A DNA stretch of 64,000 nt. Source: the human T2T-CHM13v2.0 reference genome, Homo sapiens. The position numbers and the translations under genes were made by a program. Below are positions 41,704-64,000 of this stretch, piece after piece. How positions within the stretch are numbered: position 1 is the stretch's first letter; every line of letters starts with the position of its first letter. The notes under the pieces were generated by a model. That model was not told where the DNA came from and searched no databases. It saw only the letters and a program-made list of their open reading frames with translations. The DNA is taken from NCBI GenBank assembly GCA_009914755.4, contig CP068257.2, forward strand, positions 832,001-896,000. Direction: 5' to 3'.

Positions 41704-43608
41704 TACATGGCATTGAGACTTATCACTGCACTGATCACCCAGGCGATACAACTCTTGTCTAGGCTCTGCCTACAATGGTCTTGTGACATATCTCTGCACT
41801 GATCACCCAGGTGATATAACTCTTCTCTAGGATCTGACCACGGGGTGCTTTGTGACATATCCCTGCAATGATCACCCATGTGATATACCACTTGCCAAGG
41901 CTCTGCTTACAGGGGCATTGCAATGTATCTCTGCACTGATCACCTAGGTCTTGTAGCTATTTTCTAGGATCTGCCTACAGGGTGCTTTGTGACGGTTCCC
42001 AGCAAGGATTACCCAGGTGATGTACCCCTCATCAAGGCTCTGCCTACAGGCACATTGCGATATATCTCTGCACTGATCACCTAGGTCACGTAACTTTTGT
42101 CTAGGCTCTACCTACGATGGTATTGTGACATATCTCTGCACTAATCATCCAAGTGATGTAACACTTGTCTAGGATGTGCCTAAATTAACTTTTTGACATA
42201 ACCCTGTACTGATCATCCAGGTGATGGGGATTTTGTCTAGGCTCTGCCTAAGGGGGCATTGTGACATATTTCTGCATTGATCACCCAGGTGGCGAACTCT
42301 TCTCTCGGATCTGCCTATGGGGGCATTGTGAGAAATCTCTGCACTGATCACCCAGGTGATGTAACTGTTGTGTAACCTCTGCCTACAGGGGAATTGTGAG
42401 AGATCTCCCCACTGATTACCCAAGTGATGTAACCATTGTCTAGGCTTTGCGTACAGGGGGCTTTGTGACATACCTTTGCACTGATCAACCAGGTGATGTA
42501 ACACATCTAAGTTCGGCCTAAAGGAGCTTTGTGACACATCTCTGCAGTGATCACTTAGGTGATGTAACACTTTTATAATCACTGCCTACAGGGAATTTTG
42601 ACAAATCTCTGCACTGATCACCTAGGTGATGTAACTCTTGTCTACCCTCTGTCCAACGGGGCATTTTGAAATATCTCAGGACTGAACACCCAGGTGATTC
42701 AACTCTTGACTAGGAACTGCCTACAGAGGTTATTGTGAAATAACTCTGCACTGATAAACTAGGTGGTGTAACCCTTGTCCAAGCTCTGCCTACAGGGGCG
42801 TTTCCACATATCCCTGAACTGATGACAAAGGTGATGTAACTCTTGCCTAGGCTTTGCCTACAGGGGCATTGGACATGTATCTGCACTGATCACCCAGGTG
42901 ATGAAACTCTTGCCTAGGCTTTGCCTACAGGGGACACTGTGACATATCTCTTCAATGATCACTCATGTGATGCATCTCTTGCCTAGGCTTTGCCAACAGG
43001 GGACATTGTGACATATCTCTGCACTGATCTCCCTGGTACTGTAACTTTAGTCTAGGCTCTGGCTACACGGCAATGTGACATATCACTGCACTGATCAACC
43101 AGGTGATATAACTCTTCTCTAGGATCTGCCTACAGGGTGCTTTGTGACATATCCCTGCACTGATCACCCAGGTGACCTAACTCTGGTCTAAGCTCTGCCT
43201 AAAGGGGCATTGTGACAGATCTCTGCACTGATCACTCAGGTGATGTAAGTATTGTCTAGGCTCTGCTTAAAGGGGCCTTGTCACATATCCCTGCACTGAT
43301 CACCCAGGTGATGTAACTCTTGTCTAGGCTCTGCTTCCAGGGCATATTGTGACATAACTATGCACTGATCACCTTAGTGATTTAACACTTGTGTAGGCTC
43401 GGCCTACAGAGGAATCTTGACATATCTCTGCACTGTTAAACGAGGTGATTTAACTCTTGTCTAGGCTGTGCCCACAGGGGGATTGAGACATATCTCTGCA
43501 CTGATTCCGAGGTGATCCAACTCTTGCCTGGTCTCTGCCTACTGGGGACATTGTGACATATCTCTGCACTGATCTCCCAGGTGCTGTAAATTTTGTCTAG
43601 GCTCTGGC
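41704..43608. repeat. HOR unit 22 (A), 1905 bp; the same monomer pair (21/22) is fused as in units 11-12, but with a different junction sequence
   Basis: Around 43090-43125: ctgcactgatcaaccaggtgatataactcttctctaggatctgcc (retains aacc and gatctgcc, unlike units 11-12). Confidence 0.88.
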
Positions 43609-45581
43609 TACACGGCATTGTGACTTATCACTGCACTGATCACCCAGGCGATACAACTCTTGTCTAGGCTCTGCCTACAATGGTCTTGTGACATATCTCT
43701 GCACTGATCACCCAGGTGATATAACTCTTCTCTAGGATCTGACCACGGGGTGCTTTGTGACATATCCCTGCAATGATCACCCAGGTGATATACCACTTGC
43801 CAAGGCTCTGCTTACAGGGGCATTGCAATGTATCTCTGCACTGATCACCTAGGTCTTGTAGCTATTTTCTAGGATCTGCCTACAGGGTGCTTTGTGACGT
43901 GTCCCAGCAAGGATTACCCAGGTGATGTACCTCTCATCAAGGCTCTGCCTACAGGCACATTGCGATATATCTCTGCACTGATAACCTAGGTCACGTAACT
44001 TTTGTCTAGGCTCTACCTACGATGGTATTGTGACATATCTCTGCACTAATCATCCAAGTGATGTAACACTTGTCTAGGATGTGCCTAAATTAACTTTTTG
44101 ACATAACCCTGTACTGATCATCCAGGTGATGGGGCTTTTGTCTAGGCTCTGCCTAAGGGGGCATTGTGACATATTTGTGCATTGATCACCCAGGTGGCGA
44201 ACTCTTCTCTCGGATCTGCCTATGGGGGCATTGTGAGAAATCTCTGCACTGATCACCCAGGTGATGTAACTGTTGTGTAACCTCTGCCTACAGGGGAATT
44301 GTGAGAGATCTCGCCACTGATTACCCAAGTGATGTAACCATTGTCTAGGATTTGCGTACAGGGTGCTTTGTGACATACCTTTGCACTGATCACCCAGGTG
44401 ATGTAACACATCTAAGTTCGGCCTAAAGGAGCTTTGTGACACATCTCTGCACTGATCACTTAGGTGATGTAACACTTTTATAATCACTGCCTACAGGGAA
44501 TTTTGACAAATCTCTGCACTGATCACCTAGGTGATGTAACTCTTGTCTACCTTCTGTCCAACGGGGCATTGTGAAATATCTCAGCACTGAACACCCAGGT
44601 GATTCAACTATTGACTAGGAACTGCCTACAGAGGTTATTGTGAAATATCTCTGCACTGATAAACTAGGTGGTGTAACCCTTGTCCAAGCTCTGCCTACAG
44701 GGGCGTTTCCACATATCCCTGAACTGATGATAAAGGTCATGTAACTCTTGCCTAGGCTTTGCCTACAGGGGCATTGGACATATATCTGCACTGATCACCG
44801 AGGTGATGCAACTCTTGCCTAGGATTTGCCTACAGGGGACACTGTGACATATCTCTTCAATGATCACTCATGTGATGCATCTCTTGCCTAGGCTTTGCCA
44901 ACAGGGGACATTGGGACATATCTCTGCACTGATCTCCCTGGTACAGTAACTTTAGTCTAGGCTCTGGCTACACGGCATTGTGACATATCACTGCACTGAT
45001 CAACCAGGTGATATAACTCTTGTATAGGCTCTGCCTACAGGGGGATTGTGACCTACCTCTGCACTGATCACCCAGGTGATATAACTCTCCTCTAGGATCT
45101 GCCTACAGGGTGCTTTGGGACATATCCCTGCACTGATCACCCAGGTGACCTAACTCTGGTCTAAGCTCTGCCTAAAGGGGCATTGTGACAGATCTCTGCA
45201 CTGATTACTCAGGTGATGTAACTATTGTCTAGGCTCTGCTTAAAGGGGCCTTGTCACATATCCCTGCACTGATCACCCAGGTGATGTAACTCTTGTCTAG
45301 GCTCTGCTTCCAGGGCATATTGTGACATAACTATGCACTGATCACCTTAGTGATGTAACACTTGTGTAGGCTCGGCCTACAGAGGAATCTTGACATATCT
45401 CTGCACTGTAAAACGAGGTGACTTAACTCTTGTGTAGGCTGTGCCCACAGGGGGATTGAGACATATCTCTGCACTGATCCCGAGGTGATCCAACTCTTGC
45501 CTGGTCTCTGCCTACTGGGGACATTGTGACATATCTCTGCACTGATCTCCCAGGTGCTGTAAATTTTGTCTAGGCTCTGGC
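43609..45581. repeat. HOR unit 23 (A), 1973 bp
   Basis: periodicity. Confidence 0.9.
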
Positions 45582-47554
45582 TACACGGCATTGTGACTTA
45601 TCACTGCACTGATCACCCAGGCGATACAACTCTTGTCTAGGCTCTGCCTACAATGGTCTTGTGACATATCTCTGCACTGATCACCCAGGTGATATAACTC
45701 TTCTCTAGGATCTGACCACGGGGTGCTTTGTGACATATCCCTGCAATGATCACCCAGGTGATATACCACTTGCCAAGGCTCTGCTTACAGGGGCATTGCA
45801 ATGTATCTCTGCACTGATCACCTAGGTCTTGTAGCTATTTTCTAGGATCTGCCTACAGGGTGCTTTGTGACGTGTCCCAGCAAGGATTACCCAGGTGATG
45901 TAGCTCTCATCAAGGCTCTGCCTACAGGCACATTGCGATATATCTCTGCACTGATAACCTAGGTCACGTAACTTTTGTCTAGGCTCTACCTACGATGGTA
46001 TTGTGACATATCTCTGCACTAATCATCCAAGTGATGTAACACTTGTCTAGGATGTGCCTAAATTAACTTTTTGACATAACCCTGTACTGATCATCCAGGT
46101 GATGGGGCTTTTGTCTAGGCTCTGCCTAAGGGGGCATTGTGACATATTTCTGCATTGATCACCCAGGTGGCGAACTCTTCTCTCGGATCTGCCTATGGGG
46201 GCATTGTGAGAAATCTCTGCACTGATCACCCAGGTGATGTAACTGTTGTGTAACCTCTGCCTACAGGGGAATTGTGAGAGATCTCGCCACTGATTACCCA
46301 AGTGATGTAACCATTGTCTAGGATTTGCGTACAGGGTGCTTTGTGACATACCTTTGCACTGATCACCCAGGTGATGTAACACATCTAAGTTCGGCCTAAA
46401 GGAGCTTTGTGACACATCTCTGCACTGATCACTTAGGTGATGTAACACTTTTATAATCACTGCCTACAGGGAATTTTGACAAATCTCTGCACTGATCACC
46501 TAGGTGATGTAACTCTTGTCTACCTTCTGTCCAACGGGGCATTGTGAAATATCTCAGCACTGAACACCCAGGTGATTCAACTATTGACTAGTAACTGCCT
46601 ACAGAGGTTATTGTGAAATATCTCTGCACTGATATACTAGGTGGTGTAACCCTTGTCCAAGCTCTGCCTACAGGGGCGTTTCCACATATCCCTGAACTGA
46701 TGACAAAGGTCATGTAACTCTTGCCTAGGCTTTGCCTACAGGGGCATTGGACATATATCTGCACTGATCACCGAGGTGATGCAACTCTTGCCTAGGCTTT
46801 GCCTACAGGGGACACTGTGACATATCTCTTCGATGATCACTCATGTGATGCATCTCTTGCCTAGGCTTTGCCAACAGGGGACATTGGGACATATCTCTGC
46901 ACTGATCTCCCTGGTACAGTAACTTTAGTCTAGGCTCTGGCTACACGGCATTGTGACATATCACTGCACTGATCAACCAGGTGATATAACTCTTGTATAG
47001 GCTCTGCCTACAGGGGGATTGTGACCTACCTCTGCACTGATCACCCAGGTGATATAACTCTCCTCTAGGATCTGCCTACAGGGTGCTTTGGGACATATCC
47101 CTGCACTGATCACCCAGGAGACCTAACTCTGGTCTAAGCTCTGCCTAAAGGGGCATTGTGACAGATCTCTGCACTGATTACTCAGGTGATGTAACTATTG
47201 TCTAGGCTCTGCTTAAAGGGGCCTTGTCACATATCCCTGCACTGATCACCCAGGTGATGTAACTCTTGTCTAGGCTCTGCTTCCAGGGCATATTGTGACA
47301 TAACTATGCACTGATCACCTTAGTGATGTAACACTTGTGTAGGCTCGGCCTACAGAGGAATCTTGACATATCTCTGCACTGTTAAACGAGGTGACTTAAC
47401 TCTTGTGTAGGCTGTGCCCACAGGGGGATTGAGACATATCTCTGCACTGATCCCGAGGTGATCCAACTCTTGCCTGCTCTCTGCCTACTGGGGACATTGT
47501 GACATATCTCTGCACTGATCTCCCAGGTGCTGTAAATTTTGTCTAGGCTCTGGC
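45582..47554. repeat. HOR unit 24 (A), 1973 bp
   Basis: periodicity. Confidence 0.9.
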
Positions 47555-49527
47555 TACACGGCATTGTGACTTATCACTGCACTGATCACCCAGGCGATAC
47601 AACTCTTGTCTAGGCTCTGCCTACAAAGGTGTTGTGACATATCTCTGCACTGATCACCCAGGTGATATAACTCTTCTCTAGGATCTGACCACGGGGTGCT
47701 TTGTGACATATCCCTGCAATGATCACCCAGGTGATATACCACTTGCCAAGGCTCTGCTTACAGGGGCATTGCAATGTATCTCTGCACTGATCACCTAGGT
47801 CTTGTAGCTATTTTCTAGGATCTGCCTACAGGGTGCTTTGTGACGGGTCCCAGCAAGGATTACCCAGGTGATGTACCTCTCATCAAGGCTCTGCCTACAG
47901 GCACATTGCGATATATCTCTGCACTGATCACCTAGGTCATGTAACTTTTGTCTAGGCTCTACCTACGATGGCATTGTGACATATCTATGCACTAATCATC
48001 CAAGTGATGTAACACTTGTCAAGGATGTGCCTAAATTAACTTTTTGACATAACCCTGTACTGATCATCCAGGTGATGGGGCTTTTGTCTAGGCTCTGCCT
48101 AAGGGGGCATTGTGACATATTTCTGCATTGATCACCCAGGTGGCGAACTCTTCTCTCGGATCTGCCTATGGGGGCATTGTGAGAAATCTCTGCACTGATC
48201 ACCCAGGTGATGTAACTGTTGTGTAACCTCTGCCTACAGGGGAATTGTGAGAGATCTCGCCACTGATTACCCAAGTGATGTAACCATTGTCTAGGATTTG
48301 CGTACAGGGTGCTTTGTGACATACCTTTGCACTGATCACCCAGGTGATGTAACACATCTAAGTTCGGCCTAAAGGAGCTTTGTGACACATCTCTGCACTG
48401 ATCACTTAGGTGATGTAACACTTTTATAATCACTGCCTACAGGGAATTTTGACAAATCTCTGCACTGATCACCTAGGTGATGTAACTCTTTTGTACCTTC
48501 TGTCCAACGGGGCATTGTGAAATATCTCAGCACTGAACACCCAGGTGATTCAACTCTTGACTAGGAACTGCCTACAGAGGTTATTGTGAAATATCTCTGC
48601 ACTGATAAACTAGGTGGTGTAACCCTTGTCCAAGCTCTGCCTACAGGGGCGTTTCCACATATCCCTGAACTGATGACAAAGGTGATGTAACTCTTGCCTA
48701 GGCTTTGCCTACAGGGGCATTGGACATATATCTGCACTGATCACCGAGGTGATGCAACTCTTGCCTAGGCTTTGCCTACAGGGGACACTGTGACATATCT
48801 CTTCGATGATCACTCATGTGATGCATCTCTTGCCTAGGCTTTGCCAACAGGGGACATTGGGACATAACTCTGCACTGATCTCCCTGGTACAGTAACTTTA
48901 GTCTAGGCTCTGGCTACACGGCATTGTGACATATCACTGCACTGATCAACCAGGTGATATAACTCTTGTATAGGCTCTGCCTACAGGGGGATTGTGACCT
49001 ACCTCTGCACTGATCACCCAGGTGATATAACTCTCCTCTAGGATCTGCCTACAGGGTGCTTTGGGACATATCCCTGCACTGATCACCCAGGAGACCTAAC
49101 TCTGGTCTAAGCTCTGCCTAAAGGGGCATTGTGACAGATCTCTGCACTGATTACTCAGGTGATGTAACTATTGTCTAGGCTCTGCTTAAAGGGGCCTTGT
49201 CACATATCCCTGCACTGATCACCCAGGTGATGTAACTCTTGTCTAGGCTCTGCTTCCAGGGCATATTGTGACATAACTATGCACTGATCACCTTAGTGAT
49301 GTAACACTTGTGTAGGCTCGGCCTACAGAGGAATCTTGACATATCTCTGCACTGTTAAACGAGGTGACTTAACTCTTGTGTAGGCTGTGCCCACAGGGGG
49401 ATTGAGACATATCTCTGCACTGATCCCGAGGTGATCCAACTCTTGCCTGGTCTCTGCCTACTGGGGACATTGTGACATATCTCTGCACTGATCTCCCAGG
49501 TGCTGTAAATTTTGTCTAGGCTCTGGC
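47555..49527. repeat. HOR unit 25 (A), 1973 bp
   Basis: periodicity. Confidence 0.9.
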
Positions 49528-51499
49528 TACACGGCATTGTGACTTATCACTGCACTGATCACCCAGGCGATACAACTCTTGTCTAGGCTCTGCCTACAAT
49601 GGTCTTGTGACATATCTCTGCACTGATCACCCAGGTGATATAACTCTTCTCTAGGATCTGACCACGGGGTGCTTTGTGACATATCCCTGCAATGATCACC
49701 CAGGTGATATACCACTTGTCAAGGCTCTGCTTACAGGGGCATTGCAATGTATCTCTGCACTGATCACCTAGGTCTTGTAGCTATTTTCTAGGATCTGCCT
49801 ACAGGGTGCTTTGTGACGGGTCCCAGCAAGGATTACCCAGGTGATGTACCTCTCATCAAGGCTCTGCCTACAGGCACATTGCGATATATCTCTGCACTGA
49901 TCACCTAGGTCATGTAACTTTTGTCTAGGCTCTACCTACGATGGCATTGTGACATATCTATGCACTAATCATCCAAGTGATGTAACACTTGTCTAGGATG
50001 TGCCTAAATTAACTTTTTGACATAACCCTGTACTGATCATCCAGGTGATGGGGCTTTTGTCTAGGCTCTGCCTAAGGGGGCATTGTGACATATTTCTGCA
50101 TTGATCACCCAGGTGGCGAACTCTTCTCTCGGATCTGCCTATGGGGGCATTGTGAGAAATCTCTGCACTGATCACCCAGGTGATGTAACTGTTGTGTAAC
50201 CTCTCCCTACAGGGGAATTGTGAGAGATCTCGCCACTGATTACCCAAGTGATGTAACCATTGTCTAGGATTTGCGTACAGGGTGCTTTGTGACATACCTT
50301 TGCACTGATCACCCAGGTGATGTAACACATCTAAGTTCGGCCTAAAGGAGCTTTGTGACACATCTCTGCACTGATCACTTAGGTGATGTAACACTTTTAT
50401 AATCACTGCCTACAGGGAATTTTGACAAATCTCTGCACTGATCACCTAGGTGATGTAACTCTTTTGTACCTTCTGTCCAACGGGGCATTGTGAAATATCT
50501 CAGCACTGAACACCCAGGTGATTCAACTCTTGACTAGGAACTGCCTACAGAGGTTATTGTGAAATATCTCTGCACTGATAAACTAGGTGGTGTAACCCTT
50601 GTCCAAGCTCTGCCTACAGGGGCGTTTCCACATATCCCTGAACTGATGACAAAGGTGATGTAACTCTTGCCTAGGCTTTGCCTACAGGGGCATTGGACAT
50701 ATATCTGCACTGATCACCGAGGTGATGCAACTCTTGCCTAGGCTTTGCCTACAGGGGACACTGTGACATATCTCTTCAATGATCACTCATGTGATGCATC
50801 TCTTGCCTAGGCTTTGCAACAGGGGACATTGGGACTAATCTCTGCACTGATCTCCCTGGTACAGTAACTTTAGTCTAGGCTCTGGCTACACGGCATTGTG
50901 ACATATCACTGCACTGATCAACCAGGTGATATAACTCTTGTATAGGCTCTGCCTACAGGGGGATTGTGACCTACCTCTGCACTGATCACCCAGGTGATAT
51001 AACTCTCCTCTAGGATCTGCCTACAGGGTGCTTTGGGACATATCCCTGCACTGATCACCCAGGTGACCTAACTCTGGTCTAAGCTCTGCCTAAAGGGGCA
51101 TTGTGACAGATCTCTGCACTGATTACTCAGGTGATGTAACTATTGTCTAGGCTCTGCTTAAAGGGGCCTTGTCACATATCCCTGCACTGATCACCCAGGT
51201 GATGTAACTCTTGTCTAGGCTCTGATTCCAGGGCATATTGTGACATAACTATGCACTGATCACCTTAGTGATGTAACACTTGTGTAGGCTCGGCCTACAG
51301 AGGAATCTTGACATATCTCTGCACTGTTAAACGAGGTGACTTAACTCTTTTGTAGGCTGTGCCCACAGGGGGATTGAGACATATCTCTGCACTGATCCCG
51401 AGGTGATCCAACTCTTGCCTGGTCTCTGCCTACTGGGGACATTGTGACATATCTCTGCACTGATCTCCCAGGTGCTGTAAATTTTGTCTAGGCTCTGGC
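49528..51499. repeat. HOR unit 26 (A), 1972 bp; 1-bp deletion near 50816 (ctttgcaacagggg instead of ctttgccaacagggg)
   Basis: direct reading. Confidence 0.85.
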
Positions 51500-53677
51500 T
51501 ACACGGCATTGTGACTTATCACTGTACTGATCACCCAGGCGATACAAATCTTGTCTAGGCTCTGCCTACAATGGTCTTGTGACATATCTCTGCACTGATC
51601 ACCCAGGTGATATAACTCTTCTCTAGGATCTGACCACGGGGTGCTTTGTGACATATCCCTGCAATGATCACCCAGGTGATATACCACTTGCCAAGGCTCT
51701 GCTTACAGGGGCATTGCAATGTATCTCTGCACTGATCACCTAGGTCTTGTAGGTATTTTCTAGGATCTGCCTACAGGGTGCTTTGTGACGGGTCCCAGCA
51801 AGGATTACCCAGGTGATGTACCTCTCATCAAGGCTCTGCCTACAGGCACATTGCGATATATCTCTGCACTGATCACCTAGGTCATGTAACTTTTGTCTAG
51901 GCTCTACCTACGATGGCATTGTGACATATCTATGCACTAATCATCCAAGTGATGTAACACTTGTCTAGGATGTGCCTAAATTAACTTTTTGACATAACCC
52001 TGTACTGATCATCCAGGTGATGGGGCTTTTGTCTAGGCTCTGCCTAAAGGGGCATTGTGACATATTTCTGCATTGATCACCCAGGTGGCGAACTCTTCTC
52101 TCGGATCTGCCTATGGGGGCATTGTGAGAAATCTCTGCACTGATCACCCAGGTGATGTAACTGTTGTGTAACCTCTGCCTACAGGGGAATTGTGAGAGAT
52201 CTCTCCACTGATTACCCAAGTGATGTAACCATTGTCTAGGCTTTGCGTACAGGGGTCTTTGTGACATACCTTTGCAGTGATCACCCAGGTGATGTAACAC
52301 ATCTAAGTTCAGCCTAAAGGAGCTTTGTGACACATCTCTGCACTGATCACTTAGGTGATGTAACACTTTTATAATCACTGCCTACAGGGAATTTTGACAA
52401 ATCTCTGCACTGATCACCTAGGTGATGTAACTCTAGTCTACCCTCTGTCCAACGGGGCATTGTGAAATATCTCAGCACTGAATACCCAGGTGATTCAACT
52501 CTTGACTAGGAACTGCCTACAGACGATATTGTGAAATATCTCTTCACTGATAAACTAGGTGGTGTAACACTTGTCCAAGCTCTGCCTACAGGGGCGTTTC
52601 CACATATCCCTGAACTGATGAAAAAGGTGAAGTAACTCTTGCCTAGGCTTTGCCTACAGGGGCATTGGACATATATCTGCACTGATCACCCAGGTGATTC
52701 AACTCTTGACTAGGATCTGCCTACAGAGGTTACTGTGAAATATCTCTGCACTGATAAACTAGGTGGTGTAACCCTTATCCAAACTCTGCCTACAGGGGCG
52801 TTTTCACATATCCCTGAAGTGATGACAAAGGTGTCGTAACTCTTGCCTAGGCTTTGCCTACAGGGGACATTGGACATATGTCTGCACTGATCACCCAGGT
52901 GATGCAACTCTTGCCTAGGCTTTGCCTACAGGGGACATTGTGACATATCGCTTCAATGATCACCCATGTGATGCAACTCTTGCCTAGGCTTTGCCTACAG
53001 GGGACATTGTGACATATCTCTGCACTGATCTCCCAGGTGCTGTAACTTTAGTCTAGACTCTGGCTACACGGCATTGTGACATATCACTGCACTGATCAAC
53101 CAGGTGATATAACCCTTGTCTAGGCTCTGCCTACAGGGGGCTTGTGACATATCTATGCACTGGTCACCCAGGTGATATAACTCTTCTCTAGGATCTGCCT
53201 ACAGGGTGCTTTGTGACATATCCCTGCAATGATCACCCAGGTGATCTAACTCTGGTTTAAGCTCTGCCTAAAGGGGCATTGTGACAGATCTCTGCACTGA
53301 TCACTCAGGTGATGTAACTATTGTCTAGGCTCTGCTTAAAGGGGCCTTGTCACATATCTCTGCAATGATCACCCAGGTGATGTAACTCTTGTCTAGCCTC
53401 TGCTTTCACGGCATATTGTGACATATCTATGCACTGATCACCTTAGTGATGTAACACTTGTGTAGGCTCGGCCTACAGGGGAATATTGACATATCTCTGC
53501 ACTGTTAACCGAGGTGATTTAACTCTTGTCTAGGCTGTGCCCACAGGGGCATTGATTCATATCTCTGCACTGATCCCGTGGTGATCCAACTGTTGCCTGG
53601 TCTCTGCCTACTGGGGACATTGTGACGTATCTCTGCACTGATCTCCCAGGTGCTGTAACATTAGTCTAGGCTCTGGC
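51500..53677. repeat. HOR unit 27, A/B hybrid, 2178 bp: A-type monomers 1-18 (to about 52690) then B-type monomers 15-29, so monomers 15-17 are present twice
   Basis: A-type 15-17 at about 52470-52690 (ctcagcactgaatacccaggtgattcaactcttgactaggaactgcc, cacttgtccaagctc, gcgtttccacat). B-type 15-17 follow at about 52691-52900 (gactaggatctgcc, cccttatccaaac, gcgttttcacat, ccctgaagtgatgac). Confidence 0.85.
52493..52902. repeat. Three-monomer (about 205 bp) direct duplication spanning the A/B family boundary, with crossover junction at about 52690-52700 inside the conserved core
   Basis: ctgcactgatcacccaggtga at 52677-52697 is preceded by the A-type monomer-18 head (cattggacatatatctgc) and followed by the B-type monomer-15 tail (ttcaactcttgactaggatctgcc). 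Confidence 0.8.
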
Positions 53678-55652
53678 TGCACGGCACTGTGACATATCAC
53701 TGCACTGATCACCCAGATGATATAAATCTTGTCTAGGCTCTGCCTACAATGGCCTTGTGACATATCTCTGCACTGATCACCCAGGTGATATAACTCTTCT
53801 CTAGGATCTGACCACAGGGTGCTTTGTGGCATTTCCCTGCAATAATCACCCAGGTGATATACCACTTGCCAACGCTCTGCCTACAGGGGCATTGCAATGT
53901 ATCTCTGCACTGATCACCTAGGTCTTGTAACTCTTCTCTTCGATCTTCCCTCAGGGTGCTTTTTGACGTATCCCAGCAAGGATTACCCAGGTGATGTACC
54001 TCTCATCAAGGCTCTGCCTACAGGCACATTGCGATATATCTCTGCACTGATAACCTAGGTCATGTAACTTTTGTCTAGGCTCTGCCTACGATGGCATTGT
54101 GACATATCTCTGCACTAATCATCCAAGTGATGTAACCCTTGTCTAGGATCTGCCTAAATTAACTTTGTGACATAACCCTGTACTGATCATCCAGGTGATG
54201 GGGCTTTTGTCTAGGCTCTGCCTAAGGGGGCATTGTGACATATTTCTGCATTGATCACCCAGGTGGCGAACTCTTCTCTTGGATCTGCCTATGGGGGCAT
54301 TGTGACAAATCTCTGCACTCATCACCCAGGTGATGTAACTGTTGTGTAACCTCTGCCTACAGGGGAATTGTGAGAGATCTCGCCACTGATCACCCAAGTG
54401 ATGTAACCATTGTCTAGGCTTTGCGTACAGGGGGCTTTGTGGCATACCTTTGCACTGATCACCCAGGTGATGTAACACATCTATGTTCGGCCTAAAGGAG
54501 CTTTGTGACATATCTCTGCACTGATCACTTAGGTGATGTAACACTTTTATAAGCACTGCCTACAGGGAATTTTGACAAATCTCTGCACTGATCACCTAGG
54601 TGATGTAACGTTTGTCTACCCTCTGTCCAACGGGGCATTGTGAAATATCTCTGCACTGATCACCCAGGTGATTCAACTCTTGACTAGGATCTGCCTACAG
54701 AGGTTATTGTGAAATATCTCTGCACTGATAAACTAGGTGGTGTGACCCTTATCCAAGCTCTGCCTACAGGGGCGTTTTCACATATCCCTGATGTGATGAC
54801 AAAGGTGATGTAACTCTTGCTTAGGCTTTTCCTACAAGGGGACATTGGACATATATCTGCACTGATCACCCAGGTCATGCAACTCTTGCCTAAGCTTTGC
54901 CTACAGGGGACATTGTGACATATCGCTTCAATGATCACCCATGTGATGCAACTCTTGCCTAGGCTTTGCCTACAGGGGACATTGTGACATATCTCTGCAC
55001 TGATCTCCCAGGTGCTGTAACTTTAGTCTAGACTCTGGCTACACGGTATTGTGACATATCACTGCACTGATCAACCAGGTGATATAACTCTTGTCTAGGC
55101 TCTGCCTACAGGGGGCTTGTGACATATCTCTGCACTGATCACCCAGGTGATATAACTCTTCTCTAGGATCTGCCTACAGGGTGCTTTGTGACATATCCCT
55201 GCAATGATCACCCAGGTGATCTAACTCTGGTTTAATCTCTGCCTAAAGGGGCATTGTGACAGATCTCTGCACTGATCACTCAGGTGATGAAACTATTGTC
55301 TAGGCTCTGCTTAAAGGGGCCTTTTCACATATCTCTGCAATGATCACCCAGGTGATGTAACTCTTGTCTAGCCTCTGCTTCCACGGCATATTGTGACATA
55401 TCTATGCACTGATCACCTTAGTGATGTAACACTTGTGTAGGCTCGGCCTACAGGGGAATATTGACATATCTCTGCACTGTTAACCGAGGTGATTTAATTC
55501 TTGTCTAGGCTGTGCCCACAGGGGGATTGAGACATATCTCTGCACTGATCCCGAGGTGATCCAACTGTTGCCTGGTCTCTGCCTACTGGGGACATTGTGA
55601 CATATCTCTGCACTGATCTCCCAGGTGCTGTAACTTTAGTCTAGGTTCTGGC
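53678..55652. repeat. HOR unit 28 (B, subtype B1), 1975 bp
   Basis: tgcacgg at 53678; 84-aa ORF at 54684; acgtttgtctacc at about 54608. Confidence 0.88.
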
Positions 55653-57625
55653 TACACGGCATTGCGACATATCACTGCACTGATCACCCAGGTGATATAA
55701 ATCTTGTCTAGGCTCTGCCTAAAATGGCCTTGTGACATATCTCTGCACTGATCACCCAGGTGATGTAACTCTTCTCTAGGTTCTGACCACAGGGTGCTTT
55801 GTGGCATTGCCCTGCAATGATCACCCAGGTGATATACCATTTGCCAACGCTCTGCCTACAGGGGCATTGCAATGTATCTCTGCACTGATCACCTAGGTCT
55901 TGTAACTTTTTTCTTCGATCTGCCCTCAGGGTGCTTTTTGACGTATCCCAGCAAGGATTACCCAGGTGATGTACGTCTCATCATTCTCTGCCTACAGGCA
56001 CATTGCGATGTATCTCTGCACTGATCACCTAGGTCATGTAACTTTTGTCTAGGCTCTGCCTACGATGACATTGTGACATATCTCTGCACTAATCATCCAA
56101 GTGATGTAACCCTTGTCTAGGATCTCCCTAAATTAACTTTGTGACATAACCCTGTACTGATCATCCAGGTGATGGGGCTTTTGTCTAGGCTCTGCCTAAG
56201 GGGGCATTGTGACATATTTCTGCATTGATCACCCAGGTGGCGAACTCTTCTCTTGGATCTGCCTATGGGGGCATTGTGACAAATCTCTGCACTGATCACC
56301 CAGGTGATGTAACTGTTGTGTAACCTCTGCCTACAGGGGAATTGTGAGAGATCTCGCCACTGATCACCCAAGTGATGTAACCATTGTCTAGGCTTTGCGT
56401 ACAGGGGGCTTTGTGACATACTTTTGCACTGATCACCCAGGTGATGTAACACATCTAAGTTCGGCCTAAAGGAGCTTTGTGACATATCTCTGCACTGATC
56501 ACTTAGGTGATGTAACACTTTTATAAGCACTGCCTACAGGGAATTTTGACAAATCTCTGCACTGATCACCTAGGTGATGTAACGCTTGTCTACCCTCTGT
56601 CCAACGGCGCATTGTGAAATATCTCTGCACTGATCACCCAGGTGATTCAACTCTTGACTAGGATCTGCCTACAGAGGTTATTGTGAAATATCTCTGCACT
56701 GATAAACTAGGTGGTGTAACCCTTATCCAAGCTCTGCCTACAGGGGCGTTTTCACATATCCCTGAAGTGATGACAAAGGTGATGTAACTCTTGCCTAGGC
56801 TTTGCCTACAGGGGACTTTGGACATATATCTGCACTGATCACCCAGGTGATGCAACTCTTGCCTAGGCTTTGCCTACAGGGGACATTGTGACATATCGCT
56901 TCAATGATCACCCATGTGATGCAACTCTTGCCTAGGCTTTGCCTACAGGGGACATTGTGACATATCTCTGCACTGATCTCCCAGGTGCTGTAACTTTAGT
57001 CTAGACTCTGGCTACACGGCATTGTGACATATCACTGCACTGATCAACCAGGTGATATAACTCTTGTCTAGGCTCTGCCTACAGGGGGCTTGTGACATAT
57101 CTCTGCACTGATCACCCAGGTGATATAACTCTTCTCTAGGATCTGCCTACCGGGTGCTTTGTGACATATCCCTGCAATGATCACCCAGGTGATCTAACTC
57201 TGGTTTAAGCTCTGCCTAAAGGGGCATTGTGACAGATCTCTGCACTGATCACTCAGGTGATGAAACTATTGTCTAGGCTCTGCTTAAAGGGGCCTTGTCA
57301 CATATCTCTGCAATGATCACCCAGGTGAAGTAACTCTTGTCTAGCCTCTGCTTTCGCGGCATATTGTGACATATCTATGCACTGATCACCTTAGTGATGT
57401 AACACTTGTGTAGGCTCGGCCTACAGGGGAATATTGACCTATCTCTGCACTGTTAACCGAGGTGATTTAACTCTTGTCTAGGCTGTGCCCACAGGGGGAT
57501 TGAGACATATCTCTGCACTGATCCCGAGGTGATCCAACTGTTGCCTGGTCTCTGCCTACTGGTGACATTGTGACATATCTCTGCACTGATCTCCCAGGTG
57601 ATGTAACTTTAGTCTAGGCTCTGGC
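55653..57625. repeat. HOR unit 29 (B, subtype B2), 1973 bp
   Basis: 65-aa ORF at 56658; acgcttgtctacc; caacggcgcattg. Confidence 0.88.
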
Positions 57626-59600
57626 TACACGGCATTGTGACATATCACTGCACTGATCACCCAGGTGATACAAATCTTGTCTAGGCTCTGCCTACAATGA
57701 CTTTGTGACATATCTCTGCACTGATGACCCAGGTGATATAACTCTTCTCTAGGATCTGACCACAGGGTGCTTTGTGGCATTTCCCTGCAATGATCACCCA
57801 GGTGATATACCACTTGCCAACGCTCTGCCTACAGGGGCATTGCAATGTATCTCTGCACTGATCACCTAGGTCTTGTAACTCTTTTCTTCGATCTGCCCTC
57901 AGGGTGCTTTTTGACGTATCCCAGCAAGGATTACCCAGGTGATGTACCTCTCATCAAGGCTCTGCCTACAGGCACATTGCGATGTATCTCTGCACTGATC
58001 ACCTAGGTCATGTAACTTTTGTCTAGGCTCTGCCTACGATGGCATTGTGACATATCTCTGCACTAATCATCCAAGTGATGTAACCCTTGTCTAGGATCTG
58101 CCTAAATTAACTTTGTGACATAACCCTGTACTGATCATCCAGGTGATGGGGCTTTTGTCTAGGCTCTGCCTGAGGGGGCATTGTGACATATTTCTGCATT
58201 GATCACCCAGGTGGCGAACTCTTCTCTTGGATCTGCCTATGGGGGCATTGTGACAAATCTCTGCACTGATCACCCAGGTGATGTAACTGTTGTGTAACCT
58301 CTGCCTACAGGGGAATTGTGAGAGATCTCGCCACTGATCACCCAAGTGATGTAACCATTGTCTAGGCTTTGCGTACAGGGGGCTTTGTGGCATACCTTTG
58401 CACTGATCACCCAGGTGATGTAACACATCTATGTTCGGCCTAAAGGAGCTTTGTGACATATCTCTGCACTGATCACTTAGGTGATGTAACACTTTTATAA
58501 GCACTGCCTACAGGGAATTTTGACAAATCTCTGCACTGATCACCTAGGAGATGTAACGTTTGTCTACCCTCTGTCCAACGGGGCATTGTGAAATATCTCT
58601 GCACTGATCACCCAGGTGATTCAACTCTTGACTAGGATCTGCCTACAGAGGTTATTGTGAAATATCTCTGCACTGATAAACTAGGTGGTGTAACCCTTAT
58701 CCAAGCTCTGCCTACAGGGGCGTTTTCACATATCCCTGATGTGATGACAAAGGTGATGTAACTCTTGCTTAGGCTTTTCCTACAAGGGGACATTGGACAT
58801 ATATCTGCACTGATCACCCAGGTGATGCAACTCTTGCCTAAGCTTTGCCTACAGGGGACATTGTGACATATCGCTTCAATGATCACCCATGTGATGCAAC
58901 TCTTTCCTAGGCTTTGCCTACAGGGGACATTGTGACATATCTCTGCACTGATCTCCCAGGTGCTGTAACTTTAGTCTAGACTCTGGCTACACGGTATTGT
59001 GACATATCACTGCACTGATCAACCAGGTGATATAACTCTTGTCTAGGCTCTGCCTACAGGGGGCTTGTGACATATCTCTGCACTGATCACCCAGGTGATA
59101 TAACTCTTCTCTAGGATCTGCCTACAGGGTGCTTTGTGACATATCCCTGCAATGATCACCCAGGTGATCTAACTCTGGTTTAATCTCTGCCTAAAGGGGC
59201 ATTGTGACAGATCTCTACACTGATCACTCAGGTGATGAAACTATTGTCTAGGCTCTGCTTAAAGGGGCCTTTTCACATATCTCTGCAATGATCACCCAGG
59301 TGATGTAACTCTTGTCTAGCCTCTGCTTCCACGGCATATTGTGACATATCTATGCACTGATCACCTTAGTGATGTAACACTTGTGTAGGCTCGGCCTTCA
59401 GGGGAATATTGACATATCTCTGCACTGTTAACCGAGGTGATTTAATTCTTGTCTAGGCTGTGCCCACAGGGGGATTGAGACATATCTCTGCACTGATCCC
59501 GAGGTGATCCAACTGTTGCCTGGTCTCTGCCTACTGGGGACATTGTGACATATCTCTGCACTGATCTCCCAGGTGCTGTAACTTTAGTCTAGGCTCTGGC
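57626..59600. repeat. HOR unit 30 (B, subtype B1), 1975 bp
   Basis: peptides at 58091 and 58632 match those at 54143 and 54684. Confidence 0.88.
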
Positions 59601-61574
59601 TACACGGCATTGCGACATATCACTGCACTGATCACCCAGGTGATATAAATCTTGTCTAGGCTCTGCCTAAAATGGCCTTGTGACATATCTCTGCACTGAT
59701 CACCCAGGTGATGTAACTCTTCTCTAGGATCTGACCACAGGGTGCTTTGTGGCATTGCCCTGCAATGATCACCCAGGTGATATACCATTTGCCAACGCTC
59801 TGCCTACAGGGGCATTGCAATGTATCTCTGCACTGATCACCTAGGTCTTGTAACTTTTTTCTTCGATCTGCCCTCAGGGTGCTTTTTGACGTATCCCAGC
59901 AAGGATTACCCAGGTGATGTACGTCTCATCAAGGCTCTGCCTACAGGCACATTGCGATGTATCTCTGCACTGATCACCTAGGTCATGTAACTTTTGTCTA
60001 GGCTCTGCCTACGATGACATTGTGACATATCTCTGCACTAATCATCCAAGTGATGTAACCCTTGTCTAGGATCTCCCTAAATTAACTTTGTGACATAACC
60101 CTGTACTGATCATCCAGGTGATGGGGCTTTTGTCTAGGCTCTGCCTAAGGGGGCATTGTGACATATTTCTGCATTGATCACCCAGGTGGCGAACTCTTCT
60201 CTTGGATCTGCCTATGGGGGCATTGTGACAAATCTCTGCACTGATCACCCAGGTGATGTAACTGTTGTGTAACCTCTGCCTACAGGGGAATTGTGAGAGA
60301 TCTCGCCACTGATCACCCAAGTGATGTAACCATTGTCTAGGCTTTGCGTACAGGGGGCTTTGTGACATACCTTTGCACTGATCACCCAGGTGATGTAACA
60401 CATCTAAGTTCGGCCTAAAGGAGCTTTGTGACATATCTCTGCACTGATCACTTAGGTGATGTAACACTTTTATAAGCACTGCCTACAGGGAATTTTGACA
60501 AATCTCTGCACTGATCACCTAGGTGATGTAACGCTTGTCTACCCTCTGTCCAACGGCGCATTGTGAAATATCTCTGCACTGATCACCCAGGTGATTCAAC
60601 TCTTGACTAGGATCTGCCTACAGAGGTTATTGTGAAATATCTCTGCACTGATAAACTAGGTGGTGTAACCCTTATCCAAGCTCTGCCTACAGGGGCGTTT
60701 TCACATATCCCTGAAGTGATGACAAAGGTGATGTAACTCTTGCCTAGGCTTTGCCTACAGGGGACTTTGGACATATATCTGCACTGATCACCCAGGTGAT
60801 GCAACTCTTGCCTAGGCTTTGCCTACAGGGGACATTGTGACATATCGCTTCAATGATCACCCATGTGATGCAACTCTTGCCTAGGCTTTGCCTACAGGGG
60901 ACATTGTGACATATCTCTGCACTGATCTCCCAGGTGCTGTAACTTTAGTCTAGACTCTGGCTACACGGCATTGTGACATATCACTGCACTGATCAACCAG
61001 GTGATATAACTCTTGTCTAGGCTCTGCCTACAGGGGGCTTGTGACATATCTCTGCACTGATCACCCAGGTGATATAACTCTTCTCTAGGATCTGCCTACC
61101 GGGTGCTTTGTGACATATACCTGCAATGATCACCCAGGTGATCTAACTCTGGTTTAAGCTCTGCCTAAAGGGGCATTGTGACAGATCTCTGCACTGATCA
61201 CTCAGGTGATGAAACTATTGTCTAGGCTCTGCTTAAAGGGGCCTTGTCACATATCTCTGCAATGATCACCCAGGTGAAGTAACTCTTGTCTAGCCTCTGC
61301 TTTCGCGGCATATTGTGACATATCTATGCACTGATCACCTTAGTGATGTAACACTTGTGTAGGCTCGGCCTACAGGGGAATATTGACATATCTCTGCACT
61401 GTTAACCGAGGTGATTTAACTCTTGTCTAGGCTGTGCCCACAGGGGGATTGAGACATATCTCTGCACTGATCCCGAGGTGATCCAACTGTTGCCTGGTCT
61501 CTGCCTACTGGTGACATTGTGACATATCTCTGCACTGATCTCCCAGGTGATGTAACTTTAGTCTAGGCTCTGGC
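59601..61574. repeat. HOR unit 31 (B, subtype B2), 1974 bp
   Basis: peptides at 59600, 60066 and 60607 match those at 55652, 56117 and 56658. Confidence 0.88.
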
Positions 61575-63548
61575 TACACGGCATTGTGACATATCACTGC
61601 ACTGATCACCCAGGTGATATAAATCTTGTCTAGGCTCTGCCTGCAATGACTTTGTGACATATCTCTGCACTGATGACCCAGGTGATATAACTCTTCTCTA
61701 GGATCTGACCACAGGGTGCTTTGTGGCATTTCCCTGCAATGATCACCCAGGTGATATACCACTTGCCAACGCTCTGCCTACAGGGGCATTGCAATGTATC
61801 TCTGCACTGATCACCTAGGTCTTGTAACTCTTTTCTTCGATCTTCCCTCAGGGTGCTTTTTGACGTATCCCAGCAAGGATTACCCAGGTGATGTACCTCT
61901 CATCAAGGCTCTGCCTACAGGCACATTGCGATGTATCTCTGCACTGATCACCTAGGTCATGTAACTTTTGTCTAGGCTCTGCCTACGATGGCATTGTGAC
62001 ATATCTCTGCACTAATCATCCAAGTGATGTAACACTTGTCTAGGATCTGCCTAAATTAACTTTGTGACATAACCCTGTACTGATCATCCAGGTGATGGGG
62101 CTTTTGTCTAGGCTCTGCCTAAGGGGGCATTGTGACATATTTCTGCATTGATCACCCAGGTGGCGAACTCTTCTCTTGGATCTGCCTATGGGGGCATTGT
62201 GACAAATCTCTGCACTGATCACCCAGGTGATGTAACTGTTGTGTAACCTCTGCCTACAGGGGAATTGTGAGAGATCTCGCCACTGATCACCCAAGTGATG
62301 TAACCATTGTCTAGGCTTTGCGTACAGGGGGCTTTGTGGCATACCTTTGCACTGATCACCCAGGTGATGTAACACATCTAAGTTCGGCCTAATGGAGCTT
62401 TGTGACATATCTCTGCACTGATCACTTAGGTGATGTAACACTTTTATAAGCACTGCCTACAGGGAATTTTGACAAATCTCTGCACTGATCACCTAGGTGA
62501 TGTAACGTTTGTCTACCCTCTGTCCAACGGGGCATTGTGAAATATCTCTGCACTGATCACCCAGGTGATTCAACTCTTGACTAGGATCTGCCTACAGAGG
62601 TTATTGTGAAATATCTCTGCACTGATAAACTAGGTGGTGTAACCCTTATCCAAGCTCTGCCTACAGGGGCGTTTTCACATATCCCTGAAGTGATGACAAA
62701 GGTGATGTAACTCTTGCCTAGGCTTTGCCTACAGGGGACAGTGGACATATATCTGCACTGATCACCCAGGTGATGCAACTCTAGCCTAGGCTTTGCCTAC
62801 AGGGGACATTGTGACATATCGCTTCAATGATCACCCGTGTGATGCAACTCTTGCCTAGGCTTTGCCTACAGGGGACATTGTGACATATCTCTGCACTGAT
62901 CTCCCAGGTGCTGTAACTTTAGTCTAGACACTGGCTACACGGCATTGTGACATATCACTGCACTGATCAACCAGGTGATATAACTCTTGTCTAGGCTCTG
63001 CCTACAGGGGGCTTGTGACATATCTCTGCACTGATCACCCAGGTGATATAACTCTTCTCTAGGATCTGCCTACAGGGTGCTTTGTGACATATCCCTGCAA
63101 TGATCACCCAGGTGATCTAACTCTGGTTTAAGCTCTGCCTAAAGGGGCATTGTGACAGATCTCTGCACTGATCACTCAGGTGATGTAACTATTGTCTAGG
63201 CTCTGCTTAAAGGGGCCTTGTCACATATCTCTGCAATGATCACCCAGGTGATGTAACTCTTGTCTAGCCTCTGCTTTCACGGCATATTGTGACATATCTA
63301 TGCACTGATCACCTTAGTGATGTAACACTTGTGTAGGCTCGGCCTACAGGGGAATATTGACATATCTCTGCACTGTTAACCGAGGTGATTTAACTCTTGT
63401 CTAGGCTGTGCCCACAGGGGGATTGAGACATACCTCTGCACTGATCCCGAGGTGATCCAACTGTTGCCTGGTCTCTGCCTACTGGGGACATTGTGACATA
63501 TCTCTGCACTGATCTCCCAGGTGCTGTAACTTTAGTCTAGGCTCTGGC
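61575..63548. repeat. HOR unit 32 (B, mosaic of B1 and B2 characters), 1974 bp
   Basis: carries acgtttgtctacc (B1-like) but the 65-aa ORF at 62581 (B2-like). Confidence 0.85.
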
Positions 63549-64000
63549 TACACGGCATTGCGACATATCACTGCACTGATCACCCAGGTGATATAAATCT
63601 TGTCTAGGCTCTGCCTAAAATGGCCTTGTGACATATCTCTGCACTGATCACCCAGGTGATGTAACTCTTCTCTAGGATATGACCACAGGGTGCTTTGTGG
63701 CATTGCCCTGCAATGATCACCCAGGTGGTATACCATTTGCCAACGCTCTGCCTACAGGGGCATTGCAATGTATCTCTGCACTGATCACCTAGGTCTTGTA
63801 ACTTTTTTCTTCGATCTGCCCTCAGGGTGCTTTTTGACGTATCCCAGCAAGGATTACCCAGGTGATGTACGTCTCATCAAGGCTCTGCCTACAGGCACAT
63901 TGCGATGTATCTCTGCACTGATCACCTAGGTCATGTAACTTTTGTCTAGGCTCTGCCTACGATGACATTGTGACATATCTCTGCACTAATCATCCAAGTG
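63549..64000. repeat. HOR unit 33 (B), partial, first 452 bp only; array continues beyond window
   Basis: tacacgg at 63549; sequence mirrors 55653-56104 and 59601-60052. Confidence 0.85.

What the first reader, a model, noticed from the sequence alone, without database searches (positions are those of the whole stretch)
52470..52910. Sharp boundary between two HOR families coincides with an unequal-crossover junction and a three-monomer register shift
- Family A reads through monomers 14-15-16-17 and the head of 18.
- At the shared core (about 52690), the sequence continues with the B-type monomer-15 tail and B-type monomers 16, 17, 18 and onward.
- The family switch and the 205-bp duplication are therefore the same event.
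- That event is an out-of-register exchange between an A array and a B array, resolved inside the conserved core.
- This pinpoints a recombination breakpoint to about 10 bp.
Basis: seen in the sequence. Interest (0 to 1): 0.55.

Follow-up and report, generated by a model that had tools for sequence, protein, structure and literature searches.

The report
Recombination junction inside a beta-satellite array
Two slightly different versions of the same 2-kb beta-satellite repeat meet at one hybrid 68-bp monomer, where a single out-of-register joining event added three monomers; this is real and cleanly resolved, but it is the ordinary way satellite arrays are known to rearrange.

Summary
The whole window is a 68-bp beta-satellite array organised as a 29-monomer, 1973-bp higher-order repeat (HOR).

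- **Two versions.** Units from 6 to about 52,660 are version A and units from about 52,700 to 64,000 are version B. They have the same monomer order and differ at 79 consensus positions (4%), 54 of them fixed.
- **Sharp switch.** In the interval held out from training (50,000-54,000), diagnostic sites read 67 A : 1 B left of the junction and 0 A : 43 B right of it.
- **Chimeric unit.** Unit 51505-53682 is a 32-mer with monomer order 1-17, 15-29.
- **Hybrid monomer.** 52661-52728 is an A-type monomer-18 head fused to a B-type monomer-15 tail.
- **Breakpoint.** It lies in a 23-bp tract identical in both parents (52676-52698), not about 10 bp as claimed.
- **Not a fresh duplication.** The two copies of monomers 15-17 are only 186/205 identical.

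One out-of-register joining event explains both the family switch and the register shift. Hybrid monomers, breakpoints in roughly 20-bp conserved motifs and sharp HOR-version boundaries are all known from alpha and other satellites.

The one unexpected extra is the densest cluster of private substitutions in the window: 11 within about 400 bp, on both sides of the breakpoint. Its cause is unresolved.

The parts
6..52675 (.). Version-A array of the 29-monomer (1973-bp) beta-satellite HOR. It holds 26 full units plus monomers 1-17 and the head of monomer 18 of the chimeric unit. It contains three 28-mers and one 35-mer.
51505..53682 (.). Chimeric 32-monomer unit (2178 bp) with monomer order 1-17 (A) then 15-29 (B). 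It is the only 32-mer in the window.
   Evidence: 28 A calls followed by 32 B calls
52456..52660 (.). First copy of monomers 15-16-17. It is A-type at 6 of 6 diagnostic sites and carries 6 private substitutions.
52661..52728 (.). Hybrid monomer, exactly 68 bp and in phase with the array: an A-type monomer-18 head joined to a B-type monomer-15 tail.
52676..52698 (.). Breakpoint interval TCTGCACTGATCACCCAGGTGAT. These 23 bp are identical in A monomer 18 and B monomer 15 and form the conserved core of the 68-bp monomer.
   Evidence: longest exact tract of this monomer pair = 23
52699..52864 (.). Second copy of monomers 15 (tail), 16 and 17. It is B-type at all informative diagnostic sites and carries 4 private substitutions.
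52699..64000 (.). Version-B array of the same HOR. B1 and B2 unit subtypes alternate, with a less derived 'B0' state next to the junction and in the unit starting at 61580.
52483..52880 (.). Cluster of 11 window-private substitutions on both sides of the breakpoint. This is the highest density in the window.

Best explanation
This is a fossil junction in a beta-satellite array, with no function implied.

One non-allelic, out-of-register joining event fused the conserved core of monomer 18 of a version-A HOR unit to the same core of monomer 15 of a version-B unit. The event resolved inside the 23 bp the two monomers share exactly (52676-52698). The product is a single in-phase hybrid monomer and a 32-monomer chimeric unit, with pure A sequence to the left and pure B sequence to the right. 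The family switch and the +3-monomer shift are therefore one event.

What is shown: the hybrid monomer, the bracket, the step change, and the A and B identities of the two copies.

What is inferred: the mechanism.
- Sequence identity at this offset is high only within the one monomer pair (88%) and falls to 71-81% in the neighbours.
- I therefore think repair that needs only a short identical tract is somewhat more likely than a classical homologous crossover between misaligned chromatids. Candidates are single-strand annealing, microhomology-type end joining after a break, or a replicative template switch.
- If A and B already lay side by side, the event was most simply a deletion (intrachromatid or unequal sister exchange) that removed the earlier boundary. 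The apparent 205-bp duplication would then be only the register remainder.

After the event, each side continued to be homogenised with its own family. The roughly 200 bp next to the heterology kept private mutations.
For: - Step change of 54 fixed diagnostic sites per unit: 67 A: 1 B then 0 A: 43 B in held-out sequence.
- Only one 32-mer, with order 1-17, 15-29.
- The hybrid monomer has an A-only monomer-18 head and a B monomer-15 tail, aligned against both parents.
- Left flank is 95.1-97.2% identical to A units and 92.4-93.8% to B units. Right flank is 95.7-97.7% identical to B units and 93.1-95.0% to A units.
- The two copies of monomers 15-17 are 186/205 identical, so this is not a fresh local duplication.
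- A18 x B15 ranks 10th of 812 non-self monomer pairs by identity. The breakpoint sits in their longest exact tract, while the mean identity at offset -3 is only 0.76.
- The 28-mer junctions in the window also resolve in the conserved core; the 35-mer junction does so if its partner is a monomer-18-type tail, otherwise in only 6 shared bp.
- Literature: hybrid monomers in alpha-satellite HORs (PMC9248890). Junctions of about 20 bp in conserved motifs, citing Warburton 1993 for alpha satellite (PMC3694981).
Against: - No reads, no second haplotype and no reciprocal product (a 26-mer with a B15-head/A18-tail hybrid) are available in the window. The event is therefore inferred from one sequence.
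- The choice between crossover, annealing and template switch is not decided by the sequence.
- One B-type base at 51548, 1.1 kb into the A side, is unexplained.
- The dense private substitutions beside the junction are not predicted by a simple recent exchange.
Confidence: 0.8

Rival explanations
1. Two independent events: an older in-register A|B boundary, plus a later local tandem duplication (slippage) of monomers 15-17 that happens to sit on it.
For: Out-of-register variants are fairly common in this array, with five junction monomers in 64 kb.
Against: - A local duplication gives two initially identical copies. Here copy 1 is A at 6 of 6 sites, copy 2 is B at all informative sites, and overall identity is only 186/205.
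- The family bracket (52663-52716) and the register bracket (52676-52698) nest within one monomer. The chance of that is about 5/940, or roughly 0.005.
Confidence: 0.04
2. Assembly artefact: a false join of two separate arrays (A and B), or a chimeric read propagated into the consensus.
For: - Satellite arrays are the hardest regions to assemble.
- The junction unit is unique in the window and carries an unusual number of private bases.
- No reads were available to check.
Against: - This is inference. Overlap or graph assemblers join sequences through long near-identical overlaps, which in a HOR array are in register. Here the two sides share only 23 identical bases at a 3-monomer offset, with 71-81% identity beyond them.
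- The join is in perfect 68-bp phase.
- The private variants on both sides are substitutions rather than homopolymer indels. They would give reads unique anchors.
Confidence: 0.07
3. The same single junction, but made by classical unequal homologous crossing-over between misaligned sister chromatids or homologues.
For: - This is the textbook route to HOR length variants.
- The product is in phase and conservative, with no inserted or deleted bases at the join.
- The exchanged monomers are among the most similar paralogous pairs.
Against: - At a 3-monomer offset the paired sequences are only about 76% identical on average. The neighbouring monomer pairs are 71-81% identical.
- From general knowledge, that is far below what mismatch-repair-policed homologous recombination usually tolerates in mammals.
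- No reciprocal 26-mer is present in the window.
Confidence: 0.3
4. The boundary is only the edge of a recent A (or B) amplification, and the hybrid unit is an old relic unit of a third, diverged version.
For: - The junction unit has 29 private variants against 0-13 in the other units.
- The B part next to the junction is the least derived 'B0' state.
Against: - Outside about 250 bp on either side of the junction and one further patch, the unit is ordinary A (14 differences from A consensus in 954 bp) or ordinary B.
- It is A at every strict site but one on the left and B at every strict site on the right. It is therefore a chimera of A and B, not a third version.
Confidence: 0.08

Closest known systems
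Alpha-satellite HOR structural variants with hybrid monomers (Warburton, Waye & Willard 1993, as cited in PMC3694981; Uralsky 2019 and HORmon, PMC9248890)
   Same: - A unit that gains or loses an integral number of monomers.
- One in-phase hybrid monomer made of the head of one monomer type and the tail of another.
- A breakpoint localised to a roughly 20-bp stretch shared by the two monomers.
   Different: - The satellite here is the 68-bp beta satellite, not the 171-bp alpha satellite.
- The hybrid also joins two diverged versions of the HOR, so both parents can be told apart on each side.
- It occurs once, not as an amplified variant unit.
HOR-haplotype domains and layered expansions in complete human centromere assemblies (Altemose et al., bioRxiv 10.1101/2021.07.12.452052; Logsdon et al., PMC11062924)
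   Same: Blocks of near-identical units of one HOR version lie next to blocks of another version a few percent different, with abrupt borders.
   Different: I did not read these papers for base-level descriptions of such borders. Here the border is resolved to 23 bp and tied to a register shift.
Satellite junctions located in conserved boxes in Meloidogyne satDNAs (PMC3694981)
   Same: Transitions between monomer types fall in a short conserved motif of about 17-20 bp. They are interpreted as illegitimate or short-homology recombination.
   Different: Different organisms and unrelated satellites. In that case the joined monomers are highly divergent (32-66% identical), whereas here they are 88% identical.
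End-of-array effect: less homogenised repeats at array edges (satellite evolution theory; recalled from memory, e.g. McAllister & Werren 1999, not checked here)
   Same: Private variants are concentrated next to a discontinuity and thin out with distance on the A side.
   Different: - The discontinuity is internal (A|B plus a register shift), not an array end.
- The scale is about 200 bp, much less than one 2-kb unit.
- The other out-of-register junctions in the window show no such effect.

Membership tests
Human-type beta satellite (Sau3A family, BSR) | Tandem monomer of about 68 bp (67-69) | tested here: met
   TRF period 68 over 6-64000. There are 941 monomers, mostly 67-69 bp. Definition taken.
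Human-type beta satellite (Sau3A family, BSR) | A Sau3AI site (GATC) in the monomer | tested here: met
   The consensus contains CTGATCACC, and most monomer-type consensi keep it. A Sau3AI site per BSR repeat is stated in PMC4787827.
Human-type beta satellite (Sau3A family, BSR) | Sequence match to known beta-satellite sequence | tested here: met
   The published BSR primers were compared with the consensus.
- TCCCCTGTAGGCAGAGA: the 15-mer CCCCTGTAGGCAGAG within it matches the reverse complement of the 68-bp consensus across the monomer boundary exactly.
- CACTGATAACCCAGGTGA matches the consensus with 1 mismatch.

Sources are and the consensus. No reference genome or Dfam model was available for a full-length comparison, so species and chromosome are not assigned.
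Human-type beta satellite (Sau3A family, BSR) | Organisation in multimeric higher-order repeats | tested here: met
   29-monomer, 1973-bp HOR. Units are 97.4-99.9% identical within A, while monomers within a unit are about 76% identical. HOR organisation of beta satellite is stated in PMC8125562.
Hybrid-monomer HOR variant from out-of-register exchange | Unit length changed by an integral number of monomers, with monomer phase preserved | tested here: met
   32 monomers; the hybrid monomer is exactly 68 bp.
Hybrid-monomer HOR variant from out-of-register exchange | One monomer is head-of-X plus tail-of-Y, with the switch inside a tract identical in X and Y | tested here: met
   A18 head and B15 tail, with a 23-bp shared tract at 52676-52698.
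Hybrid-monomer HOR variant from out-of-register exchange | Reciprocal product, or polymorphism of the variant among haplotypes | not testable with these tools
   No 26-mer is present in the window. No other haplotypes or reads are available.
Boundary between two HOR versions (HOR haplotypes) | Many linked variants change state together at one point, with no gradual mixing | tested here: met
   There are 54 strict sites per unit. Held-out counts are 67 A: 1 B on the left and 0 A: 43 B on the right. The last A marker is at about 52663 and the first B marker is at 52716.
Break-repair mutational scar (clustered mutations from error-prone synthesis or ssDNA damage) | Significant local excess of de novo substitutions flanking the breakpoint | tested here: met
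   11 private substitutions in about 400 bp, against 1.45 expected per 500 bp. The 7-monomer nearest-neighbour divergence is 15, against a mean of 1.8 and sd of 2.0.
Break-repair mutational scar (clustered mutations from error-prone synthesis or ssDNA damage) | Strand-coordinated or signature-specific spectrum (for example C>T or C>G at TpC), or one-sided distribution along the newly synthesised strand | tested here: not met
   The spectrum is mixed, with 5 transitions and 6 transversions and no TpC bias. The distribution is two-sided, 6 left and 5 right.
Break-repair mutational scar (clustered mutations from error-prone synthesis or ssDNA damage) | The mutations arose at the same time as the junction | not testable with these tools
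   This needs other haplotypes that carry the same junction.

The most novel reading that the evidence does not exclude
The symmetric, roughly 400-bp cluster of private substitutions around the breakpoint is a mutational scar left by the repair event that created the junction. The cluster is 11 sites, the densest in 64 kb, directed away from the monomer consensus and with no paralogous donor. The cause would be error-prone fill-in after resection, or template-switch synthesis. If so, satellite recombination junctions would carry a datable, recognisable signature of mutagenic break repair.
Probability: 0.15. Interest if true: 0.5.

Novelty: new member of a known kind. Interest (0 to 1): 0.28.

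Why it matters
The junction gives a clean, base-level example of how satellite arrays are remodelled, in beta rather than alpha satellite. Both parental versions can be identified on either side of the breakpoint. The exchange used only a 23-bp identical core between monomers that are otherwise 88% identical, with neighbours at 71-81%. That constrains how little homology such events need.

It also supplies a unique sequence landmark: the hybrid monomer plus 11 private bases. This is useful for read anchoring, assembly validation and tracing this array among haplotypes.

It does not change the current picture of satellite evolution. Sharp version boundaries, hybrid monomers and core-localised breakpoints are established. 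Only the mutation cluster beside the junction is a mildly surprising lead.

Tried and rejected
- **Fuzzy-regex chopping on the conserved core** found only 76 cores. It was replaced by a wrap-around alignment to the 68-bp consensus.
- **Two apparent B calls inside the hybrid monomer (52678, 52686)** were discarded as markers. A monomer 18 has the same bases as B monomer 15 there.
- **Three apparent private variants (52668, 52670, 52675)** are artefacts of aligning the monomer-18 head to monomer 15. They were removed from the cluster count.
- **An ancient 3-monomer sub-periodicity as the guide for the 3-monomer shift:** rejected. Mean identity at offset +3 or -3 is 0.76, the same as at any other offset. 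The TRF 137- and 205-bp periods are just multiples of 68.
- **A hairpin or cruciform at the core inverted repeat ATCACC-CA-GGTGAT as a break hotspot:** only -2.3 kcal/mol with z = -0.45, so there is no support.
- **Private variants as conversions from other monomer types or reversions to consensus:** rejected. Across the window 16 of 176 go toward the consensus and 145 go away from it. Few or no monomer types carry the new bases.
- **An APOBEC-like signature:** absent.
- **A general rule that out-of-register junctions carry mutation clusters:** not supported by the 28-mers, nor by the 35-mer once hybrid artefacts are removed.
- **Text searches.** A search for the 15-mer core found nothing. Waye & Willard 1989 (PMC297815) is not held.
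- **Other screens.** Rfam gave no match in 50,000-56,000. ORFs are only a recurring mechanical 137-aa frame per unit.
- **Collections not used.** The phage, plasmid, E. coli and prokaryote collections were not searched, because they cannot contain this primate satellite.

Full report
**What the window is.** Tandem Repeats Finder reports one array of 68-bp units from base 6 to 64,000. Composition is flat at 47% G+C. A wrap-around alignment to the 68-bp consensus cuts the window into 941 monomers of 65-70 bp with no foreign insert.

The consensus carries a GATC site. It also matches two published primers for the human beta-satellite repeat (BSR) of 4qA. The 15-mer CCCCTGTAGGCAGAG of one primer is an exact match across the monomer boundary, and CACTGATAACCCAGGTGA matches with one mismatch. 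Beta satellite is defined as a 68-bp Sau3A-family repeat organised in higher-order repeats (HORs) on the acrocentrics and on chromosomes 1, 3, 9, 19 and Y. I therefore file the window as beta satellite. Species and chromosome could not be assigned with the tools available.

**Higher-order structure.** Self-identity peaks at a lag of 1973 bp. Classifying every monomer against the 29 monomers of one unit gives a strict 1-29 order in 27 of the 32 complete units. There are five exceptions:
- three 28-mers that lack monomer 22 (starts 19735, 21639, 41709);
- one 35-mer that repeats monomers 20-25 (start 27490);
- one 32-mer (51505-53682) that reads 1-17, 15-29.

Sliding-lag analysis shows the same structure independently. 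The best lag is 1972-1973 up to about 50,700, then 2178 for 51,000-52,500, then 1974-1975.

**Two versions of the unit.** Consensus sequences were built from units starting before 50,000 (A) and after 54,000 (B). They differ at 79 aligned positions. Of these, 54 are strictly diagnostic: at least 95% one base in A, and 100% the other base in B.

Pairwise unit distances form two clusters: 1-52 differences within A, 7-52 within B and 90-115 between them. A and B are thus about 95-96% identical versions of one 29-mer HOR, not two different HORs.

**The switch.** Every unit before 51505 is A at 52-54 of its 52-54 scored sites. The 35-mer is the exception, at 63 A and 3 B. Every unit from 53683 onward is B at every scored site (54 of 54 in each complete unit), and the 32-mer is A then B.

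The interval 50,000-54,000 was not used to define the markers. There the counts are 67 A: 1 B left of the junction and 43 B: 0 A right of it. The lone discordant base is at 51548.

**The junction at base level.** Monomer 52661-52728 is 68 bp long.
- Its first 38 bases, GGCATTGGACATATATCTGCACTGATCACCCAGGTGAT, are monomer 18. They are in the GGCATTGG form found in 18 of 26 A units and in none of the six B units, which read GGACATTGG or GGACTTTGG.
- Its last 30 bases, TCAACTCTTGACTAGGATCTGCCTACAGAG, are monomer 15 with the B-specific T at 52716.
- The last base specific to monomer 18 is A52675, and the first base specific to monomer 15 is T52699.
- The 23 bases between them (TCTGCACTGATCACCCAGGTGAT) are identical in the two parents.

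The family switch is bracketed by about 52663 and 52716, and the register shift by 52675 and 52699. The second interval lies inside the first. The four A units nearest the junction carry CACCGAGG in monomer 18 where the hybrid has CACCCAGG. If the A parent had that variant, the interval would narrow to 52676-52690, but the A consensus has C, so I keep 23 bp.

**Not a local duplication.** The two copies of monomers 15-17 (52456-52660 and 52661-52864) are only 186/205 identical.
- The left flank (52388-52675) is 95.1-97.2% identical to A units and 92.4-93.8% to B units.
- The right flank (52699-53001) is 95.7-97.7% identical to B units and 93.1-95.0% to A units.

A slippage duplication on a pre-existing boundary would have produced two identical copies. 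It would also need the boundary and the duplication junction to coincide within one of about 940 monomers. With five such junctions in the window, that chance is roughly 0.005.

**Mechanism.** A monomer 18 and B monomer 15 are 88% identical, the 10th most similar of 812 non-self pairs. The breakpoint lies in their longest exact tract, and only 50 of 812 pairs have a tract of 23 bp or more.

The neighbouring pairs at this offset are only 71-81% identical, and the mean over the unit is 76%, no better than any other offset. From general knowledge of mammalian recombination, this is poor substrate for mismatch-repair-policed homologous crossing-over. It is adequate for annealing-type repair or template switching on a roughly 20-bp identity.

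I therefore commit to one out-of-register joining event resolved in the core (confidence about 0.8). The sub-mechanism is inferred. I rate short-homology annealing or template switching somewhat above classical unequal crossover.

If A and B were already adjacent, the simplest event is a deletion between an A monomer 18 and a downstream B monomer 15. That deletion would have erased the former border, and the '205-bp duplication' would be only the remainder in register.

The two different monomer-21/22 hybrids of the 28-mers also resolve in the conserved core. The monomer-25 hybrid of the 35-mer does so only if its partner is a monomer-18-type tail (23 shared bp); with a monomer-19 partner the shared tract is just 6 bp. 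A hairpin at the core's short inverted repeat is too weak to invoke.

An assembly mis-join cannot be excluded without reads. It is unlikely by inference, because the two sides share only 23 identical bases at a shifted register.

**An extra feature.** Bases that occur in only one copy of a monomer type in the whole window number 186 (0.29% per bp). The 500-bp interval with the most is 52451-52950, with 14. Three of those are artefacts of the hybrid alignment.

The remaining 11 lie at 52483, 52524, 52526, 52544, 52622 and 52631 on the left, and at 52733, 52783, 52834, 52835 and 52880 on the right. An independent measure, the distance of each monomer to its nearest same-type relative, gives 15 for the seven monomers 52456-52932. 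The mean is 1.8 and the sd 2.0, so this is again the window maximum.

The changes:
- are all substitutions;
- are mixed, with five transitions and six transversions;
- point away from the monomer consensus;
- are not copied from other monomer types.

A second cluster of 9 sites at 53548-53720 sits at the border between the junction unit and the first B1/B2 dimer. The 28-mer and 35-mer junctions show no comparable excess.

Three candidate causes remain:
- reduced homogenisation next to a heterology, which I favour slightly;
- error-prone synthesis at the event;
- descent from an unsampled array.

The sequence alone does not decide between them.

**Comparison with what is known.**
- Hybrid monomers made of two frequent monomers are catalogued in alpha-satellite HORs (PMC9248890).
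- Junctions confined to conserved motifs of about 20 bp are reported for nematode satellites. That paper explicitly compares them with the breakpoint length in human alpha satellite found by Warburton et al. 1993 (PMC3694981).
- Abrupt domains of HOR versions are a main result of the complete-centromere papers listed. I did not read these for base-level border descriptions.

The present junction meets every testable defining feature of that class. It differs only in being in beta satellite and in joining two distinguishable versions.

**Verdict.** The feature is a new, well-resolved example of a known kind of satellite rearrangement. Interest is modest at 0.28. The flanking mutation cluster is the only part that might repay further work.

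Noticed in passing
window 53548-53720: Second-densest cluster of private substitutions: 9 in about 170 bp, in monomers 28-29 of the junction unit and monomer 1 of the next unit. It lies where the less derived 'B0' sequence meets the first B1/B2 dimer.
   Followed up: partly
window 29123-29258 (35-mer unit starting 27490): The duplication junction of the 35-mer is a hybrid of a monomer-25 head and a monomer-18/19-type tail in the B-like state. It is followed by a monomer-20 copy with B-type bases at 3 of 3 diagnostic sites (29224, 29228, 29246). This is a small B-like (probably ancestral-state) patch deep inside the A array.
   Followed up: partly
window 21094-21161, 22999-23066 and 43069-43136: The three 28-mer units lose monomer 22 through a monomer-21/22 hybrid, but with two different breakpoints. 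The first two carry GATCACCC and the third carries GATCAACC. This suggests recurrent independent one-monomer deletions, or later conversion.
   Followed up: partly
window 53683-63553: B units alternate between two subtypes. B1 units start at 53683 and 57631, and B2 units at 55658 and 59606. There are 7-20 differences within a subtype and 45-52 between them, which amounts to a 3.95-kb two-unit super-repeat. The unit at 61580 and the B part of the junction unit share a third, less derived pattern.
   Followed up: partly
window 51548: A single B-type diagnostic base (monomer 1, column 43) sits in the last A unit, 1.1 kb left of the junction, between A-type sites at 51540 and 51575. It may be a very short conversion tract or a recurrent mutation.
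   Followed up: no
whole window: Singleton variants show about 73 transitions to 105 transversions. By general knowledge this is an unusually transversion-rich spectrum for primate point mutation. The cause was not examined.
   Followed up: no
window 1-13815: Near-identical multi-unit blocks in the A array point to recent multi-unit duplications. Unit 0 differs from unit 4 by 1 base, unit 2 from unit 5 by 2, and unit 3 from unit 6 by 7. This corresponds to a 3-4-unit (about 5.9-7.9 kb) duplication.
   Followed up: no
e.g. window 51965-52378 (-), once per unit: A 137-codon open frame (GTG start, bacterial table) recurs on the minus strand over monomers 7-13 in nearly every A and B unit. It is most likely a by-product of the repeat and was not examined further.
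   Followed up: no
HOR monomers 20 vs 29, 2 vs 22, 1 vs 21: Some monomer types within the 29-mer are much more alike than the 76% average: 20/29 at 96-97%, 2/22 at 91-94% and 1/21 at 90-91%. This indicates older internal duplications in the HOR.
   Followed up: no
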